From Promethearchaeota archaeon (GTDB taxonomy: Archaea > Asgardarchaeota > Lokiarchaeia > Sigyniarchaeales > Promethearchaeaceae), in NCBI GenBank assembly GCA_016933055.1, contig JAFGBS010000009.1:630001-662000 (forward strand): a stretch of DNA of 32,000 bases, written 5' to 3'. The position numbers and the translations under genes were made by a program. Within the stretch, counting starts at the first letter, position 1. Each line of letters begins with the position of its first letter. Shown here piece after piece: positions 8,453-20,248 of the stretch. The notes under the pieces are model-generated. The model did not search any database, was not told where the DNA came from, and was given only the letters and a program-made list of their open reading frames with translations.

Positions 8453-9559
8453 TTATAAAGGTATTTTATAGATTAGAGCGTATACAACTGCAGAGAGAAT
8501 ACTTATAACAAAAGATACTATGCTATACAATAATACTCCCTTCCATTTGAAATATTTCGAGTTAGGAACCATAGATACAAAATCATAAGGTTGTCCCATC
8601 ATAAAGGAGAGAGCAGTCGCATTATCCATTCCCTTTAATATAAAAGATCTTGTCATCACAATTTCAACTAAAGTTGGAGTATAAAGTGGTCCTCCCAGGA
8701 GTGCTGCAATCACAATACCTACAAATCCCGTGAAATAAGTAGTAATCCATTCATCTGGAATATATGCTATCAAGAAACTTACAGCAACAAGCCCTAAAAG
8801 CAATCTTGGTAATATATTCTTCATAATATCCAAAGTGAATTTGTAAGCGGTTTCCACACGATCATGGATCGTTTTTTTGACTTCAAATCGCTTAACTTGA
8901 CCAGTTGTTGCATATTGCTTATCGTACTGGTTTCTTAATTCTCTAGAAACTCTTAATCGATCGAATAATATTCCACTTAATACCGCTGCTACAAATGACC
9001 AAGCTAATCTCCATAATCCAAGATTCCATCCGATATATTCTCCCGTCATTAAAATAGTTATGAAGTTTGCAGCGGGTGCCATAAGGAAAAACGTCATTGC
9101 TACACCTAAGCTTGCACCTGAGGCCAAAATACCCACATAAACAGGAATTACTGAACAACTACATGTAACAAAAATGGGAGCTAACAATGCAGCTAAGAGG
9201 TAATGATAAAATTTCCCACCACCCAACCATTTTCTTATGGAAGTTGTAGGAACAAATTCATAAATCACTCCTGAAAGCATGAATGCAAGTAACAATGAAT
9301 TCCATGCATGTTTTATATAATTGATAATATATACATAGGGAATTATGTACCATTCATATGCTGCATAATCTATAGATTCAGTTGGAGGTGTAGTGAATAA
9401 GAGTTTTATTTTGGAATAAATGAAATATCCAACCAGTGCTGCTAAAACTATAAAATAAAATATAGTGTATAGTTTTTTTCTTCGTTCAGCATTAAAATAA
9501 TTCAAAAATCGTTTTTTTAGACTTATTCGTCTTTCATGCATAGTATCTGATACGGCCAT
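8453..9559 (-). CDS. ArsP/DUF318-family permease
   Basis: Multiple TM segments; motifs PIFVTCSCSVIP, GVAMTFFLMAPAAN, GGPLYTPT, ALSFMMG; GAGGAG RBS upstream. Confidence 0.88.
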   Translation of the reverse strand: MAVSDTMHERRISLKKRFLNYFNAERRKKLYTIFYFIVLAALVGYFIYSKIKLLFTTPPTESIDYAAYEWYIIPYVYIINYIKHAWNSLLLAFMLSGVIYEFVPTTSIRKWLGGGKFYHYLLAALLAPIFVTCSCSVIPVYVGILASGASLGVAMTFFLMAPAANFITILMTGEYIGWNLGLWRLAWSFVAAVLSGILFDRLRVSRELRNQYDKQYATTGQVKRFEVKKTIHDRVETAYKFTLDIMKNILPRLLLGLVAVSFLIAYIPDEWITTYFTGFVGIVIAALLGGPLYTPTLVEIVMTRSFILKGMDNATALSFMMGQPYDFVSMVPNSKYFKWKGVLLYSIVSFVISILSAVVYALIYKIPL

Positions 9560-9572
9560 GGAATTGTCTCCT

Positions 9573-12458: not shown

Positions 12459-12998
12459 CTACTGATATCCTAATTTTTTCCCAAGTTCGACTATCCGATT
12501 TCCAAGCCCTTTAGTGCTTTCAATTGCATCAGAGTCTATTTTTATGTCACCAGTATTGAAAGCAAATCCCAAAACCCCCCTATTCACGGGAATCATTTCA
12601 TGTTTAAGGAAAAATGCATTAATGGCTGTAATTGCCCCTTCTGCTCCGTATTTTCGTCCAACCACGATAGTTCCCCCCATTTTATTTTGCAAATGACCCA
12701 TTAAGCAATAGGTTCTATCTATGAATTTTTTCATATGCGAAGAAACATTGTTGAAATAAACGGGGGTACCAAGGATTATTACGTCGCTTTTAAGAAGCTC
12801 AGGTATTATCAATTTTTGCATGTCGTCTTCAATAATACATTTGCCCATACCACGACAGTCTCTGCATGCACGACAAGGTTCTATGTAATAATCTGAAAGC
12901 TTGTAAAAAATACCCCCTATCAAAGATCTTAATGCTTCTAATAAATAATCTGTATTACTATTTTTTCGTGGGCTTCCAGAAACGTACATAATGTCCAT
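12459..12998 (-). CDS. Iron-sulfur flavoprotein (Isf) / flavodoxin-family NADPH-dependent FMN reductase
   Basis: GSPRKNSNT, CxxCxxCx5C (CRACRDCRGMGKC), IEDDM, GTPVYF, MKKFIDR. Confidence 0.92.
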   Translation of the reverse strand: MDIMYVSGSPRKNSNTDYLLEALRSLIGGIFYKLSDYYIEPCRACRDCRGMGKCIIEDDMQKLIIPELLKSDVIILGTPVYFNNVSSHMKKFIDRTYCLMGHLQNKMGGTIVVGRKYGAEGAITAINAFFLKHEMIPVNRGVLGFAFNTGDIKIDSDAIESTKGLGNRIVELGKKLGYQ

Positions 12999-13332: not shown

Positions 13333-14460
13333 TTATCTTTGTTCCCATAATCTAGATATTTTTAGAGCTTTTTCCTTTCCTGATTGAAAAATTTTCCTAA
13401 TTTCAGGAATCAGTTTCAAATTTTGGAGGTCCTCCATTTTTGAAGACATTGAAACTGTGATCAAATCCGTTAGGAACATAATCGCCATCTGTGCTCGTGT
13501 GTCTGCGTCAGCGCTTGAATTATGGGGTATAAAGATAAATTTCAATTCTGGATTCCGATTTTGAATTTGTCTAAATCTGTCTAACGTAATATTATCTATT
13601 GGTTCTTGTTCAAACACATCGAACACTAAATTTATTGAGACCACATCTTTCTCCATTAAATTTAATAAATCGTCAAAATTAATGATGTCACCTCTTGCAG
13701 TGTTTACCAATAATGCTCCTTTTTTCATCAGTTTTAACAACTTTGCATTAATTATATGGTAAGTCGAATTCGACAAAGGTATATGTAATGAAATTATATC
13801 GGATTGAGTAAAAATTTCTTCCAAGGAACTGACAAATTTAAGGTTCGGATAATCAATTTCAAATTCTAATTGTTGGTTAATATCATAATACAGAATTTTT
13901 ACACCCCATGGATACAATCTTTTAGTAACTTCTTTGCCAATTTCACCCATTCCAACAATACCAAGCATAAGATTATCTAGTATCGCACTCAAATTTTCAT
14001 CGAGATCCCACTTATGACTGGCTTTCCACTCACCATTCCATACAAAATTATGTAATCCAACAATATTTCGAAGATTTGATAAGATTGCTGCAATAGCAAA
14101 ATTTGCAACAGTATTATGAAGAACTCCTGGAGTATGTGTTATTATGACACCAGGTTCTTGTGAGATATGATTATACCCTGCAGTACATGTACAAACTGCA
14201 ACTATATTTGAGTTTTGAAGCATTTTAGAAGTAATAGGATGACTAAGGTGGCATCCCAGAATTTCTGCCCCCCAATTTTGTATAGCATCTGTAATCTCTT
14301 CCTCTGAGGGAAATCGAGTTCCAGATATCTTGAGTTCTGTTACTCTTTTTAGTTGATCCCATAATTCGGTAATCTTTTGTTTTTTCTCATCCGATACTTT
14401 TGGATGTTCTGCAATCTCGCGAAAAACGGGAGATGTTAAGTAACACTTCAATTTTTTCAT
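13333..14460 (-). CDS. D-isomer-specific 2-hydroxyacid dehydrogenase (glyoxylate reductase-like)
   Basis: TAGYNHI, THTPGVL, GIVGMGEIG, DIISLHIP, LVNTARG, DVFEQEP, PHN. Confidence 0.92.
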   Translation of the reverse strand: MKKLKCYLTSPVFREIAEHPKVSDEKKQKITELWDQLKRVTELKISGTRFPSEEEITDAIQNWGAEILGCHLSHPITSKMLQNSNIVAVCTCTAGYNHISQEPGVIITHTPGVLHNTVANFAIAAILSNLRNIVGLHNFVWNGEWKASHKWDLDENLSAILDNLMLGIVGMGEIGKEVTKRLYPWGVKILYYDINQQLEFEIDYPNLKFVSSLEEIFTQSDIISLHIPLSNSTYHIINAKLLKLMKKGALLVNTARGDIINFDDLLNLMEKDVVSINLVFDVFEQEPIDNITLDRFRQIQNRNPELKFIFIPHNSSADADTRAQMAIMFLTDLITVSMSSKMEDLQNLKLIPEIRKIFQSGKEKALKISRLWEQR

Positions 14461-14476
14461 TGATTATATACCAAAT

Positions 14477-15187
14477 TCATTCTGATTCTACTTTATTTCT
14501 TAGAGTACCTATATTTTCGATTTTCACCTCAATAAAATCTCCAGGAGATAATGATCCAACACCCGAGGGTGTCCCTGTAGCGATTATATCTCCCGGATAA
14601 AGAGTGAAATACTTAGAAATATACTCTATAATAATGTCAACCTTGAAAAACATTTCAGAAGTGTTAGTTTTCTGAACTTCTCGGTTATTTAGCAGTGTTG
14701 TTAATATCAAGTCATTGGGATCATCTATATCTTCTTGCAGAACTAATTGAGGGCCGATTGGACCAAATGTATCAAGACTTTTAGACATAAACCAAGGCCA
14801 TGATTTCTCACGTAGATGCAGCTGAAAAGCCCTCGCAGTTACATCATTAAAACATGTATACCCTAAAACAAATTCCTTATAATGCTCTTTAGAAATATTT
14901 TTTCCCCGTTTTCCCATAATTACTGCAAGTTCTCCTTCATAATCCACTTGATCTAGCCCTATTTTGTGCAAAATTTTTGGATATAATATCTTTGAATCAT
15001 TTCCAATCAATACGTTAGGAGTTTTTGGGAATAAAAGAGGTGTTTTAGGGGGATCTTTCGGTACTTTTCTCTTACCTTCAGTTGATTGTATTGGATAATT
15101 AAACCCAAGACATAGTATTTTTGACGGATTTACACTATAATTGCTTGAATTATGCGCAATTGGCAGTTCAATTTTATTTTCATTCAT
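14477..15187 (-). CDS. Fumarylacetoacetate hydrolase family protein
   Basis: KILCLGFNY, DYEGELAV, GYTCFNDVTAR, KSLDTFGPIGP, PGDIIATGTPSGVG. The ATG at 15187 fits the GGAG RBS spacing better than the one at 15196. Confidence 0.93.
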   Translation of the reverse strand: MNENKIELPIAHNSSNYSVNPSKILCLGFNYPIQSTEGKRKVPKDPPKTPLLFPKTPNVLIGNDSKILYPKILHKIGLDQVDYEGELAVIMGKRGKNISKEHYKEFVLGYTCFNDVTARAFQLHLREKSWPWFMSKSLDTFGPIGPQLVLQEDIDDPNDLILTTLLNNREVQKTNTSEMFFKVDIIIEYISKYFTLYPGDIIATGTPSGVGSLSPGDFIEVKIENIGTLRNKVESE

Positions 15188-15887
15188 TTTTGGCATCTCC
15201 TATTATAGAAACAAAGGAATCTTTATCTGCATCATATTTTGCATAGGAGTCAATTGGGAATGCTGACTCAAGGAGAATGTATTTATTTTTCTTGGAAACT
15301 TCTAATTTTTCACCCTGATTACTTTCGGTCTGTTCTCGATTGAGTTGATTAAAAAAATTATTCCTTATTTTCATATATTCGTTCAAATCCTCTTCCTCCA
15401 ATAAATGCATATTATAGCGAATAGGATTAGATTTCCAGTAGGATGAGGATTTTTTTTTTATTTGAATATCTGAAGATTCGAGATTTTTTTCTAGAAATTG
15501 GTACAAGAAAAAAACATGAGTGAAAATTTCTCGAAGTAATCCAATCGTAAGTAGATCCCTTCTGAAAAATAACTGTTCGAGCTGCTCTTTATTATCTGGA
15601 TTTATTTTGAGAGCATGTTCCAATTCGATATTAAATATCTTCAAGAAATTTGGATGATAAACATAATACTTACCAATTCGTTGAATTACTCCTAATTTTT
15701 CGAATTTCTTTACGTGATGGAGTATAGTTGATTTAGATCTACCGATTTGTTCACTCAATTCTGTTAGGGTCATTTTTCGATTTATCAACATTAGAAGCAG
15801 CCCCCTAAGTCTTGTTTCATTTGCTGATAATTTCATTACTCTATTATGCATTTTCAATTCTTGAATTAGATCAAACGATTTCGACAT
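15180..15887 (-). CDS. Winged-helix (ArsR-like) transcriptional regulator with C-terminal domain
   Basis: ETRLRGLLLML..RKMTLTELSEQIGRSKSTILHHVKKFEKLGVI wHTH; embedded in the catabolic gene run. Confidence 0.82.
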   Translation of the reverse strand: MSKSFDLIQELKMHNRVMKLSANETRLRGLLLMLINRKMTLTELSEQIGRSKSTILHHVKKFEKLGVIQRIGKYYVYHPNFLKIFNIELEHALKINPDNKEQLEQLFFRRDLLTIGLLREIFTHVFFLYQFLEKNLESSDIQIKKKSSSYWKSNPIRYNMHLLEEEDLNEYMKIRNNFFNQLNREQTESNQGEKLEVSKKNKYILLESAFPIDSYAKYDADKDSFVSIIGDAKNE

Positions 15888-15933
15888 TGATTCAAATCCT
15901 CGTATAATATTAAAAGATGGACGGTTATTGTTT

Positions 15934-16245
15934 TTATATTGGGATATTAATTAATACTAACGGTCCATATTGTTGACCTGCATAGTTATCACCATCACAT
16001 ATATCTCCTTGAAAAAAGGGACGTGGCATGGAAATCTTAATTGTATGTGCAATATCATAATAATAAATCTTAATCAGATCACTCTTTATGTTGTATAAAT
16101 CACTAAACAATTTTGTTGTGAAAAATCCGGTTGTTATCACCTTATCATAGATTTCCTTTGATGGAAACATTATGTCAATGGTCATGATAAATGGTCCCGC
16201 ATTTTTTGACCGGACTACCTTTGCTAGTTCTCCTAAAGTCGTCAT
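15934..16245 (-). CDS. DUF4387-family protein
   Basis: LGELAKVVRSKNAGPF.MTIDI.F, IKISMPRP...GD..D.D.YAGQQYGPL; GAGGAGG RBS; directly follows the AtuA-family gene, the usual pairing. Confidence 0.9.
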   Translation of the reverse strand: MTTLGELAKVVRSKNAGPFIMTIDIMFPSKEIYDKVITTGFFTTKLFSDLYNIKSDLIKIYYYDIAHTIKISMPRPFFQGDICDGDNYAGQQYGPLVLINIPI

Positions 16246-16247
16246 CC

Positions 16248-17618
16248 TCAAACCTCCTCATAGCTGAACCTAAACATTTCAAATGGATCATCGGGTTCAA
16301 CAACGTGATTGACATTAAATCGATAAACGGGTCCCTTCTCAATTTCTGGAGGGGAAAAGGGATATGCAATTGTACTTATAATGCCTTCCCATTCCGGAAT
16401 TGGAAGATGAGCAGAAATATGAGCGACAAATTTTGAAATTTCGGTAGCAAGTTCCTGACTCTGAGCTGTTATTGTAATTAATAATCCCACTTCATGACCC
16501 ACTTGATCTTTAAGAGGTTCCATGGGACCCATTACACCATTTTTCCCATATACGCGAAAATGTATTGAGAAATCATCTTTTTTTAGTCCGGGAAACATTT
16601 TTGGAACTTTTTCCCCAAAATAGGCATCTGCTAATTTGAATAAGCTATCTAATTGCTTTATGATGTAAGGGTCTCGAATTCCTCCAATAATTACCGTTTG
16701 GTATCCAACTAATTCAGCCCCTTCTAATTTGATCGTGTAAGTTTCTTTCCTAAATTCTGATCCCTTCACAATCACTGAACGATTATCTTTTGCTTGATAT
16801 TCACAATTCTCAGTCACTATCGTTCCTTCAGGTTCACGAATCTCAAACGGGCTTAAATTTTCATATAAGGTATGGGCTGCAATCGTTAATGGGGTTACTT
16901 TTAAATCGAGATCAAGAGGTTCAACTTCAAATTCTGTATCCCGTATACGCACAAACATGCTATCAGCTGCGGGAACTACTGCACAAGCTGCGCCACATTC
17001 GATTGTTTTTGCCATATGCCACGTAAGCCCAGGATCTGCGCCCATTCGCAGCGGAACTACTGCAAACAAGGATGTATCTGTCGCTCGCCCTGCAAGTATC
17101 ACATCCGCTCCTTCAGATAATGCTCGATTCAATTGTTCATATCCCATCACTCCAACAATTCGAGCGCTCTTATTAATTGTTTCTTCAGTATATTCAAATT
17201 CAGGAAATAATGGTTTAATTTTTCCTTCTCCTAATTTTTGTTTAAGGTAGGTTTTATCTTGGTCAGCTTTAATCAGTGCTATTTTAAAGTGGAGATTTTC
17301 TTCTTTGGCAATTTCGATAACTATGTCACGCATCCAATCTACAGCTACGTCAGATCCGCTGGTACCACAGGATCCAATAATGAGTGGCACTTTAAGTTCA
17401 TCTCGACCAAGAAGAATTAAACGTGTGTCTCGCTTGATTGCAGATCGAGCAGGCTTCGCTATTCCTGTCCCTAAGGCATATGCTCCCGAATCTGTGGACC
17501 CCGCATCACATGCAATCACATGTGGATTCAGTTTGATACCTCTTTCAAAGGATTCCTCCTTAAACCCGGTTCCGATATTACCATTAGGACCTAATACCCT
17601 TATTTCCATCTTTATCAA
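16248..17618 (-). CDS. Acyclic terpene utilization AtuA-family (DUF1446) protein
   Basis: DAGSTDSGAYALGTG, IIGSCGTSG, GADVILAGRATD, KTIECGA, AHTLYEN, IKLEGA...GYQT..IGGIRDP. The start may be the ATG of MEIRVLG. Confidence 0.9.
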   Translation of the reverse strand: MIKMEIRVLGPNGNIGTGFKEESFERGIKLNPHVIACDAGSTDSGAYALGTGIAKPARSAIKRDTRLILLGRDELKVPLIIGSCGTSGSDVAVDWMRDIVIEIAKEENLHFKIALIKADQDKTYLKQKLGEGKIKPLFPEFEYTEETINKSARIVGVMGYEQLNRALSEGADVILAGRATDTSLFAVVPLRMGADPGLTWHMAKTIECGAACAVVPAADSMFVRIRDTEFEVEPLDLDLKVTPLTIAAHTLYENLSPFEIREPEGTIVTENCEYQAKDNRSVIVKGSEFRKETYTIKLEGAELVGYQTVIIGGIRDPYIIKQLDSLFKLADAYFGEKVPKMFPGLKKDDFSIHFRVYGKNGVMGPMEPLKDQVGHEVGLLITITAQSQELATEISKFVAHISAHLPIPEWEGIISTIAYPFSPPEIEKGPVYRFNVNHVVEPDDPFEMFRFSYEEV

Positions 17619-17743
17619 TCACAATTCCTTTCATAAATTTATAAACATTTCGAACTTTTTTCAAAGATATTTAAAGAGATAGAACAGATTTATATAGGAT
17701 TAGGATAGATAAAAAATTAGCTTTATATCATGGTGAATAAGGT

Positions 17744-19012
17744 ATGGAAACTCAAACCAAACGTAAATTCAAAGCAGGAACGGTGTTTTTCCTTTCACTT
17801 GCAGTATTTGCTCAGGAAATATCATTTAATTTTTATGATTCACAAGTTCCTCCACTACTTGCCAAATATATTGGAAGTGCTAGTATTATCGGCTTTATCA
17901 TGGGAATTGATAATTTAATTGGATTATTCCTAGAACCAATAGTAGGAAATTTGTCAGATAACACTAAAACAAAGATTGGTAAACGAATACCGTATCTATT
18001 AATAGGTATTCCTTTGTCGGCAATAGCTTTTTCATTAATACCATTCGAAACATCCTTACTCTCATTAATGATCATCATCTTGACTTACATAACAACGATG
18101 CTTGCATTTAAAGCACCTGCGGAAAGTTTAGTACCAGATTTTATAGTTCCAGAACATCGAAGTAAAGCAAATGCGTTAATCAAATCCATGACGGCTTTTT
18201 CGATTATTATTGCTGCATTACTCAGTGAGTTTTTAGTGGATGATTTTTTACACATATCGTTCTTAATTCCTGCAATCATAATGATAATTTGCCTAATAAT
18301 TGTTCTTACAACTGTGAAAGAAAAAGATTCCCTAAGAGTTCAGATGGAATTAAAAGAAGAAGAAAGTGGTGAACAGAAAGAATCTCCTCAAGATAAAGTT
18401 AGCTTTTTAAAATCTTTTGGTGCAATTTTTCAGCGAGAAAACAGACATATCCTCTTTTTGCTAATTTCAGTATTTTTGATGGCAGTGAGTTGGTCTTCAG
18501 TGCGATCTCTTTTAACATTGTATGGTGTAAATGCTCTGGGTATGACTGAAGGAGATGCCGGGGGTATGAGTCTCTATGCAGGAATAGTTTTCATACTTCT
18601 TGTGTTTGTAATTGCATATTTCTCCGAAAAGGTTAACCGATTGCTCTTTTTCCGAATTGGATTTGTCATTTTTATAATCGGATTTGCGCTTGGTTTTGCT
18701 ATCCGGACAGAATTTGGAACCATATTATCTACATGTATTATTGCTGTCGGATACGGTTTCATTGGCGCTAATGCAATAGTGATCTTGTGGAATCATGAAC
18801 CAAATCAAAAAGCTACTGGAACCTACACTGGAATTTATTACATCTTCTTTTATGGAGCTTATACAGTTGGAGGATTTATTGTTGGAGGACTGGTTGATTT
18901 AACAGGATGGAATTACATGTTCATTGATGCAGGAATATTTGTCACTATTGGGTTCATATTTGCGATGCTGATAAAACCTCCAAAACAAGTTGAAAAGGCA
19001 ACAGATCAATAA
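17744..19012 (+). CDS. MFS transporter, GPH/SLC45-like sugar or organic-solute symporter
   Basis: About 12 TM segments; GIDNLIGLFLEPIVGNLSDNTKTKIGKRIPYLLIG. Confidence 0.9.
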   Translation: METQTKRKFKAGTVFFLSLAVFAQEISFNFYDSQVPPLLAKYIGSASIIGFIMGIDNLIGLFLEPIVGNLSDNTKTKIGKRIPYLLIGIPLSAIAFSLIPFETSLLSLMIIILTYITTMLAFKAPAESLVPDFIVPEHRSKANALIKSMTAFSIIIAALLSEFLVDDFLHISFLIPAIIMIICLIIVLTTVKEKDSLRVQMELKEEESGEQKESPQDKVSFLKSFGAIFQRENRHILFLLISVFLMAVSWSSVRSLLTLYGVNALGMTEGDAGGMSLYAGIVFILLVFVIAYFSEKVNRLLFFRIGFVIFIIGFALGFAIRTEFGTILSTCIIAVGYGFIGANAIVILWNHEPNQKATGTYTGIYYIFFYGAYTVGGFIVGGLVDLTGWNYMFIDAGIFVTIGFIFAMLIKPPKQVEKATDQ

Positions 19013-19237: not shown

Positions 19238-20248
19238 ATGACCATCCTACCCATTAAAAGCCGTGAAGTTCATCTTATTAGTCGACCTATAGGGATACCA
19301 AGCAAGCAAAATTTTACCATTGCTAAGAATACAATCTCCGAACTTCAAGATGGAGAAGTACTCGTAAAAAACCTATATTTCTCTGTAGATCCTTATATGA
19401 GGGGAAGAATGGCAGATCGTAAAAGTTACGCAGCCCCATTTGAACTAAATCAACCTATGGACGGAGGTTGTGTTGGTGAAATCATAGTTTCCCGGAGTAA
19501 AAAATTTAAAATTGGGGAATTTGTTTACGGCTTTAGTGGTTGGAGGGAATATTTTGTATCAGATGGTCAAGAATTGATGAAGATTGATCCCACCTTAGTA
19601 CCTCTTCAATCATATCTCGGGGCATTAGGGTTGACTGGATTTACTGCATATATAGGACTTTTTGAAATAGGTAAAGTACTGGACGGGGATACCATCTATA
19701 TTTCTGCGGCAGCTGGTGCTGTGGGTTCCATGGTGTGCCAAATCGCGAAAATCAAACAATGTACGGTTATAGGGAGTGCAGGATCACAGAAAAAAGTTGA
19801 TTGGTTATTAAATAAAGTTGGAATTGATATTGCGTTTAATTATAAGGATGTGTCTAATTTACGAGCCGAACTTAAAAAGCACTGTCCTAACGGAATCGAT
19901 TTATATTTTGATAATGTAGGAGGTGAATTTTTAGATGCAGCCTTATTTAACATGAATAAATTTGGTAGGATTGTAATTTGCGGAATGATTTCCCAATACA
20001 ATAAAAGTAAACCTGATCCGATCTATAATTTAATTTTAACTATCCAGAAAAGATTATCAATCAAAGGTTTCCTTGTTGGAGACCATATGAGTAAACTTCC
20101 AGAATTTCTAACTCAGATGAGTAAATGGTATGTTAATAAACAAATAATTCAAGAGGAAACCATCACTGTGGGTATCGAAAATTCTGTAGATGCTTTTCTG
20201 GGATTATTTTCTGGAGAAAATCTTGGAAAAATGATGGTGAAATTATAA
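19238..20248 (+). CDS. NADP-dependent oxidoreductase, MDR family (prostaglandin/alkenal reductase, CurA-like)
   Basis: LYFSVDPYMRGRM, LGALGLTGFTAYIGL, SAAAGAVGS, GIDLYFDNVGG, GRIVICGMISQYN, GENLGK; AGGAG RBS. Confidence 0.95.
   Translation: MTILPIKSREVHLISRPIGIPSKQNFTIAKNTISELQDGEVLVKNLYFSVDPYMRGRMADRKSYAAPFELNQPMDGGCVGEIIVSRSKKFKIGEFVYGFSGWREYFVSDGQELMKIDPTLVPLQSYLGALGLTGFTAYIGLFEIGKVLDGDTIYISAAAGAVGSMVCQIAKIKQCTVIGSAGSQKKVDWLLNKVGIDIAFNYKDVSNLRAELKKHCPNGIDLYFDNVGGEFLDAALFNMNKFGRIVICGMISQYNKSKPDPIYNLILTIQKRLSIKGFLVGDHMSKLPEFLTQMSKWYVNKQIIQEETITVGIENSVDAFLGLFSGENLGKMMVKL

What the first reader, a model, noticed from the sequence alone, without database searches (positions are those of the whole stretch)
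13333..19012. Uncharacterised organic-acid catabolic pathway: AtuA-family + DUF4387 + wHTH + FAH + 2-hydroxyacid dehydrogenase, with divergent MFS
Seen: five tightly packed minus-strand genes (gaps of 16-46 nt or short overlaps) and a divergent transporter. Established: FAH-family enzymes act on 2-oxo/dioxo acids, D-2-hydroxyacid dehydrogenases interconvert 2-oxo and 2-hydroxy acids, and the AtuA(DUF1446)/DUF4387 pair has no clear biochemical function that I know of. Inference: import of a sugar acid or dicarboxylate, AtuA/DUF4387 lyase/isomerase/dehydratase step, then 2-oxoacid processing. This would be a substrate-defining context for two poorly understood families in an archaeon.
Basis: partly seen in the sequence, partly recalled or inferred. 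Interest (0 to 1): 0.6.

Follow-up and report, generated by a model that had tools for sequence, protein, structure and literature searches.

The report
Asgard citramalate-lyase-type acid uptake module
An Asgard archaeon carries a rare transporter-enzyme-regulator module, probably gained from bacteria, whose "unknown" gene pair is a cousin of a recently solved ATP-binding citramalate lyase; it probably splits an imported citrate-like acid, but the two downstream enzyme genes are mostly local add-ons rather than a conserved pathway.

Summary
All six genes are real and intact. The premise that the AtuA/DUF4387 pair has no known chemistry is out of date. Both subunits match citramalate lyase CmlA/CmlB (PDB 9ERQ, 9EVF, 2025; model TM 0.91), a nucleotide-binding lyase reported to cleave citramalate directly to pyruvate and acetate. 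The scan has met this family before in other genomes.

This copy is not the enterobacterial orthologue: 38% identity, a separate clade, and no glutamate-fermentation genes found. The conserved unit is MFS + A + B + regulator, seen in other Asgard loci, 44 actinobacterial loci and proteobacteria. Some proteobacterial copies sit beside citrate-synthase-domain regulators and a CitMHS transporter. Only 2 of 400 Asgard genomes have an intact copy.

The dehydrogenase follows the module only in this strain, and the other module-bearing genome had no match to it. The FAH is a duplicated variant that lacks the lid histidine; it is coupled to the regulator in three close lineages only.

Best reading: import and retro-aldol cleavage of a citrate-like 3-hydroxy acid. 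Substrate unresolved: citrate about 0.3, citramalate about 0.25, other about 0.45.

The parts
16248..17609 (-). CmlA-like large subunit (AtuA family, PF07287), 453 aa; predicted nucleotide-binding C-C lyase subunit
   Evidence: phmmer to 9erq_A E 5.5e-92; AF2 model pLDDT 91.9 matches 9evf_A TM 0.91, Z 49.5, rmsd 2.5, 441 aligned and 9erq_A Z 48.9; 38% identical to E. coli O157 ECs0760
15934..16245 (-). CmlB-like small subunit (DUF4387), 103 aa, starts 2 nt after the A stop
   Evidence: PF14330 E 1.3e-30; 9erq_B E 6.4e-22; RSKNAGP, D84, D86, Q91 conserved; A+B model score 0.94, best control 0.00 (probably by likeness to the solved complex)
17744..19012 (+). Divergent MFS transporter of a GPH/SLC45-like subfamily that travels with this lyase clade
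   Evidence: PF07690; homologue beside the pair in the Asgard loci (47-74%), L055/L087 (43-47%) and 43 of 44 actinobacterial loci
15180..15887 (-). ArsR/TrmB-like winged-HTH regulator with an unassigned helical C-terminal domain; the Asgard counterpart of the bacterial GntR or HTH-citrate-synthase regulators
   Evidence: homologue downstream of B in L053 (70%), L051 (43%), L001 and L105-108 (31-33%)
14477..15196 (-). FAHD-type protein; an extra, faster-evolving duplicate of a widespread Promethearchaeota gene. Metal and catalytic core kept (E87, E89, D118, R122, Q125, K139); lid His replaced by Gln37
   Evidence: ancestral copy at C17:547k is syntenic with G001; coupled to the same HTH in L100 and L126
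13333..14460 (-). D-2-hydroxyacid dehydrogenase (glyoxylate/hydroxypyruvate-reductase-like; GxGxxG, NTARG, DVFEQEP, PHN motifs intact); orthologue of a widespread gene, adjacent to the module only here
   Evidence: not after the FAH in L100, L101 or L126; no match in module-bearing genome G400
17610..17743 (.). Divergent intergenic region with TATA-like words at 17645-17638 (-; about 30 nt before the A start) and 17689-17696 (+; 48 nt before the MFS start)
   Evidence: read from the sequence; similar words align in Asgard relatives; pattern only, not shown to be promoters

Best explanation
The functional unit is four genes: MFS importer, CmlA-like and CmlB-like lyase, and wHTH regulator. It was most simply gained from bacteria by a few Promethearchaeota. 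Steps: (1) The MFS imports a citrate-like acid with a tertiary 3-hydroxy group (inferred from co-conservation). (2) The A/B heterodimer binds ATP at a site shared with CmlAB and cleaves the acid by retro-aldol chemistry without CoA, giving a 2-oxo acid plus acetate or a similar short acid. Fold, partner and motifs are shown here; nucleotide binding and net reaction are shown only for the enterobacterial enzyme. A transient acyl-phosphate in place of a thioester is my inference from the AMPPNP-citramalate and ADP-pyruvate structure titles. (3) The products are central metabolites, which is why the module usually has no downstream enzymes. Substrate odds: citrate 0.3, citramalate (either enantiomer) 0.25, other 0.45 (HMG, homocitrate, methylcitrate, hydroxycitrate, possibly freed from an ester or amide). 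The FAH is a lineage-specific add-on, most likely a metal-dependent decarboxylase or tautomerase of the oxo-acid product. The dehydrogenase is a recent neighbour, possibly co-transcribed but not needed.
For: Sequence and structure match to CmlAB only, far above all other folds. Invariant motifs are kept and lie at the modelled A/B interface. [quoted passage not shown] Asgard copies form one clade (SH-aLRT 99) among bacterial copies, apart from E. coli CmlA. Transporter-A-B-regulator recurs: GntR in 41 and MFS in 43 of 44 actinobacterial loci; HTH-citrate-synthase regulator with MFS or CitMHS (TIGR00784, 529 bits against a cut-off of 260) in proteobacteria. An intact copy is in 2 of 400 Asgard genomes, while FAH and dehydrogenase relatives are in 47 and 44 of 61 relatives, unlinked.
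Against: No activity is known for this clade. 22 columns are fixed differently from the Cml-like rows, so the chemistry could differ. The contexts come from few independent lineages, and the 44 actinobacterial loci are close kin. Citrate-synthase-domain regulators also flank a different clade (L110), so they are not specific. This genome already has ATP-citrate lyase, aconitase and IDH, which weakens citrate. The direction of transfer was not tested with a rooted tree.
Confidence: 0.65

Rival explanations
1. All five genes plus the MFS form one working pathway in this lineage: citrate to oxaloacetate + acetate (lyase), to pyruvate + CO2 (FAH), to D-lactate (dehydrogenase), like citrate fermentation in lactic acid bacteria but with unrelated enzymes.
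For: Tight co-orientation. HTH-FAH coupling in three lineages. The FAH duplicate has a long branch and a changed lid. An RraA/HMG-aldolase-family gene, a family that includes oxaloacetate decarboxylases, follows B in L087. CitMHS and citrate-synthase-domain neighbours. The dehydrogenase triad is intact.
Against: The dehydrogenase is not after the FAH in L100, L101 or L126 and had no match in G400. The FAH is absent from L051, L001, L105 and L054. The same FAH variant precedes hgdAB in L101, and the dehydrogenase follows hgdAB in G001, so both may derive from a 2-hydroxyacyl-CoA dehydratase block. FAHD decarboxylase activity is a minor side activity (PMC10825186). The genome has ATP-citrate lyase.
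Confidence: 0.15
2. It is simply an (S)-citramalate lyase doing the enterobacterial job, the last step of glutamate or mesaconate fermentation.
For: The only solved relative is Cml; core motifs are conserved.
Against: No methylaspartate ammonia-lyase or glutamate mutase found in the 91%-complete genome. None in 44 actinobacterial loci. 38% identity and a separate clade. The dedicated importer points to an external substrate.
Confidence: 0.08
3. This clade uses the fold for a different ATP-dependent reaction, such as ligation, activation or breakdown of an amide, ester or lactone conjugate, not C-C cleavage of a free acid.
For: Hydrolases recur beside the clade: a PahZ1/PHB-depolymerase-like gene after B in 20 of 44 actinobacterial loci, and cyclase-family hydrolases in Asgard L001, L054, L105 and Cupriavidus L110. 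Many clade-fixed substitutions.
Against: The hydrolases are optional and absent here; they are equally explained as releasing the acid before cleavage. Residues invariant with Cml are kept.
Confidence: 0.12

Closest known systems
Citramalate lyase CmlAB (PDB 9ERQ AMPPNP-citramalate complex, 9EVF ADP-pyruvate complex, released October 2025; Raoultella planticola Cml in bioRxiv 10.64898/2026.01.16.699985; E. coli O157 ECs0760/0759)
   Same: Full-length homology and fold of both subunits, gene order A then B, invariant motifs (DAGSTDSG, GRAxD, HxxKxxEC, HTLYE; RSKNAGP)
   Different: 36-38% identity; separate clade; no glmS/glmE/mal/fumD context; paired with an importer and regulator; clade-fixed changes such as A-subunit S44, C84, T205, S415, N437 and the B-subunit end GQQY instead of AQQH
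Uncharacterised bacterial GntR-MFS-AtuA-DUF4387 units (Streptomyces and relatives, L055, L087) and HTH-citrate-synthase / CitMHS or MFS units (Pseudomonas, Stutzerimonas, Steroidobacteraceae)
   Same: Same clade (50-62% identity); same minimal architecture; same MFS subfamily in the GntR type
   Different: An archaeal wHTH replaces the bacterial regulator and the MFS is divergent; I found no paper on them
FAHD proteins (human FAHD1, B. subtilis YisK, Cg1458; oxaloacetate tautomerase OAT1, PMC10825186)
   Same: Metal ligands and the Arg, Gln and Lys of the catalytic centre align
   Different: Lid His (FAHD1 H30, YisK H104) is Gln or Met in the window's four-member subclade; the genome keeps a canonical paralogue
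Archaeal glyoxylate reductases (Pyrococcus 2DBQ and relatives)
   Same: D-2-hydroxyacid dehydrogenase fold and catalytic triad
   Different: 168 bits against a cut-off of 455 for PRK13243; Promethearchaeota-wide subfamily; substrate unknown

Membership tests
CmlAB-type (AtuA + DUF4387) lyase family | Full-length AtuA-family large subunit with the CmlA fold | tested here: met
   TM 0.91; Z 49.5, rmsd 2.5, 441 aligned
CmlAB-type (AtuA + DUF4387) lyase family | Adjacent DUF4387 small subunit homologous to CmlB | tested here: met
CmlAB-type (AtuA + DUF4387) lyase family | A and B form a complex | tested here: inconclusive
   score 0.94, best control 0.00; mark reached by 58 of 80 solved and 2 of 110 mismatched pairs; runs agree in at least 93% of contacts; partner pLDDT at least 93. 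A like complex is solved, so this shows likeness only.
CmlAB-type (AtuA + DUF4387) lyase family | Residues invariant across the family are retained | tested here: met
CmlAB-type (AtuA + DUF4387) lyase family | Binds ATP/ADP and cleaves a 3-hydroxy acid without CoA | not testable with these tools
   known only from the titles of 9ERQ/9EVF and in vivo use of Cml
Enterobacterial citramalate lyase of glutamate fermentation (orthologous function) | [quoted passage not shown] | tested here: not met
   PF06368 and PF07476 not found in the 91%-complete genome
Enterobacterial citramalate lyase of glutamate fermentation (orthologous function) | Falls in the Cml clade | tested here: not met
   38% identity; separated by several branches with SH-aLRT 95-99 in quick trees; no formal topology test
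FAHD hydrolase/decarboxylase/tautomerase | Metal ligands E-x-E and D, plus catalytic R, Q, K | tested here: met
   E87, E89, D118, R122, Q125, K139; roles from PMC8398924
FAHD hydrolase/decarboxylase/tautomerase | Lid His-Glu dyad | tested here: not met
   Gln37 at the His position, Glu40 kept (His role)
D-2-hydroxyacid dehydrogenases | GxGxxG with acidic residue; Arg-Glu-His triad | tested here: met
Glyoxylate reductase PRK13243 equivalog | Score above curated cut-off | tested here: not met
   168 against 455 bits
Pseudomonas acyclic terpene utilisation (atu) pathway | atu operon context (geranyl-CoA carboxylase, dehydrogenases; from my own knowledge) | tested here: not met
   no such genes among the neighbours scanned; only a partial PF07287 match

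The most novel reading that the evidence does not exclude
This clade is a CoA-independent, ATP-using citrate lyase, a further architecture for citrate cleavage besides CitDEF and the ATP-citrate lyase/citryl-CoA systems. One Asgard lineage has added a lid-altered FAHD duplicate as oxaloacetate decarboxylase (and, in this strain, a reductase) to make a compact citrate-fermentation module.
Probability: 0.2. Interest if true: 0.65.

Novelty: new variant of a known kind. Interest (0 to 1): 0.33.

Why it matters
The CmlAB family has one characterised member and many clades with different neighbourhoods. This is a well-delimited clade with a minimal, testable module and cultured carriers (Streptomyces, Pseudomonas), so its substrate can be found in a few assays. 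It would add a carbon source for some Promethearchaeota and, if the substrate is citrate, a new type of citrate lyase. It is not a conserved Asgard pathway and does not give the two families a first function.

Tried and rejected
Paper searches for DUF4387, AtuA + citramalate lyase, and CitMHS + citrate-synthase regulator found nothing. The primary CmlAB paper was not found in the library; only a preprint using the enzyme was. The FAHD1 mechanism paper was not held, so I could not check what loss of the lid His does to each activity.

The sigma-70 promoter scan gave chance-level counts and does not suit an archaeon. The regulator's C-terminal domain had no informative match, so it gives no ligand clue. 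The MFS has no informative solved relative.

Sampling 400 Gammaproteobacteria, 100 genomes of one family and 400 Chloroflexota gave no new member of this clade; viral contigs gave none. Weak Foldseek hits to carbamate and aspartate kinases (E about 0.02, TM up to 0.25) were not listed by VIA-align and are not used. The careful tree did not finish; both A-subunit trees are quick trees.

The flanking MDR oxidoreductase (19238-20248) and flavodoxin-like gene (12459-12998) were rejected as parts: not co-conserved.

Full report
Observation. The six ORFs exist as described and are intact. The probable starts of the two lyase genes are ATG 17609 and ATG 16245, which leaves a 2-nt gap between them. 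A second assembly, L104, is identical and collinear. The host is an Asgard archaeon: close homologues are labelled Promethearchaeota.

What the pair is. The large gene matches PDB 9erq_A, named citramalate lyase subunit A (E 5.5e-92), and the small gene matches 9erq_B, subunit B (E 6.4e-22). An AlphaFold2 model (pLDDT 91.9) superposes on 9EVF, 'Citramalate lyase - ADP - pyruvate complex' (TM 0.91; Z 49.5, rmsd 2.5 over 441 residues), and on 9ERQ, the AMPPNP-citramalate complex (Z 48.9). The next fold scores Z 9 or less. [quoted passage not shown] In E. coli O157 the genes sit in the glutamate mutase, methylaspartase and fumD operon, whose citramalate step was open in 2015 (PMC4682846). The complex model scores 0.94 against a best control of 0.00 (the mark was reached by 58 of 80 solved and 2 of 110 mismatched pairs). 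This probably reflects likeness to the solved complex; its use here is that the invariant motifs fall at the A/B interface. I found this before consulting earlier scan notes, which agree.

Not the enterobacterial orthologue. Identity to E. coli CmlA is 38%, and 22 columns are fixed differently between this clade and Cml-like rows. In two quick trees the Asgard copies form one group (SH-aLRT 99) beside actinobacterial, proteobacterial and unclassified bacterial copies of 50-62% identity, and E. coli CmlA is several supported branches away. Neither glutamate mutase nor methylaspartase nor CitF was found in this 91%-complete genome.

The conserved unit. Other Asgard loci keep a divergent MFS, A and B (L001, L051, L053, L054, L086, L105-108), and most also keep the homologous wHTH. 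Of 44 actinobacterial loci, 43 have the same MFS subfamily and 41 a GntR; only one each has an FAH or a 2-hydroxyacid dehydrogenase anywhere in the flanks fetched. Proteobacterial members have an HTH-citrate-synthase fusion and an MFS or a CitMHS citrate:proton symporter above its cut-off. The module is rare in Asgard: 3 of 400 genomes match DUF4387, one of them with stops, and 1 of 61 relatives matches the large subunit. Gain from bacteria together with the transporter is the simplest reading; I did not test direction with a root.

FAH and dehydrogenase. Both families are widespread in the order (47 and 44 of 61 genomes) and lie apart from each other and from the module. The genome has a second copy of each. 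The canonical FAH at C17:547k is syntenic with the single copy of congener G001, and FAHD proteins are broadly conserved oxaloacetate tautomerases (PMC10825186). The window's FAH belongs to a four-member subclade (support 100, branch 0.37) that keeps the metal ligands and the catalytic Arg, Gln and Lys but has Gln or Met in place of the lid His. It overlaps the module's wHTH in two other lineages, L100 and L126; those contigs do not reach the lyase genes. In L101 it precedes hgdAB-type dehydratase genes instead. The dehydrogenase groups with G001's single copy (support 97), which follows hgdAB. It does not follow the FAH in L100, L101 or L126, and the other module-bearing genome, G400, had no match at E 1e-20 (its completeness is listed as 92% under handle G204, which appears to be the same genome). 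So the FAH is a plausible late recruit and the dehydrogenase a local neighbour.

How it most likely works. The transporter imports a citrate-like tertiary 3-hydroxy acid. The A/B enzyme uses a bound adenine nucleotide and no CoA to split it into a 2-oxo acid and acetate or a similar acid. An acyl-phosphate replacing the thioester is my inference from the ligands named in the two structure titles. The lack of conserved downstream enzymes suggests products that enter central metabolism directly. For citrate: the citrate-synthase-domain regulators, CitMHS, two separate recruitments of families with oxaloacetate-decarboxylating members (FAH here, RraA/HMG aldolase in L087), and no full-length ATP-citrate lyase alpha match in G400. 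Against citrate: this genome has ATP-citrate lyase, aconitase and IDH; aerobic carriers have a TCA cycle (own knowledge); such regulators also flank another clade; and an earlier scan note links CitMHS to HMG elsewhere (unchecked). Optional hydrolases beside the clade (PahZ1-like in 20 of 44 actinobacterial loci; cyclase family in several Asgard loci) hint that the acid may arrive as an ester or amide. Odds: citrate 0.3, citramalate 0.25, other 0.45.

Verdict. Real genes and a real four-gene module of a recently solved enzyme family, in a subclade of unknown substrate and in a rare archaeal setting. The proposed five-gene pathway is not conserved. New variant of a known kind; interest 0.33.

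Noticed in passing
G000 C16:125600-142700 (L123, L124): One cluster with aconitase, ATP-citrate lyase alpha and its likely beta, and an IDH-family gene, plus ORFs that look like class II fumarase, FrdAB, a 2-oxoacid:ferredoxin oxidoreductase and SucCD (the latter judged only from N-terminal sequence and size): a near-complete TCA/rTCA gene set.
   Followed up: partly
L003-L006, L009-L011, L013, L045 about 8690-9570 and others: A PahZ1 / PHB-depolymerase-like hydrolase without a Pfam match is coupled directly after DUF4387 in many Streptomyces modules (20 of 44 loci hold it).
   Followed up: partly
L069:3469-6954, L101:37-2673, G000 C17:606847-609171: hgdAB-type 2-hydroxyacyl-CoA dehydratase genes are flanked by the dehydrogenase orthologue in G001 and by the lid-altered FAH in L101; in this genome they lie about 34 kb from the dehydrogenase.
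   Followed up: partly
L067 / L081 (G294:C194:42-290): A DUF4387 match with five internal stops at a contig end in a distant Asgard family, probably a decayed copy.
   Followed up: no
family f3 genomes (such as G043:C165, G057:C57; L102/L103): Two FAHD paralogues lie in tandem in many genomes of this family.
   Followed up: no
L001:8730-9476, L105:11739-12473: A 244-248 aa probable membrane protein without a family match sits between DUF4387 and the wHTH in one Asgard lineage.
   Followed up: no
L001:6780-7020: The MFS/AtuA intergenic region holds a short repeated word (TTTAATCGAATATTAGATA) three times; possible operator duplication or assembly artefact.
   Followed up: no
L109 (Streptomyces chartreusis plasmid NZ_CP108842): The GntR-MFS-A-B module lies on a linear plasmid beside transposases, which shows it can be mobile.
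   Followed up: no
L110 (Cupriavidus oxalaticus plasmid): Two AtuA-family genes, two citrate-synthase-family genes, an MFS of the window's subfamily, a cyclase and TctC proteins in one cluster.
   Followed up: partly
window:23426-25091: Three co-oriented ORFs of 172-184 aa without a Pfam match precede a 3-hydroxyacyl-CoA dehydrogenase gene.
   Followed up: no
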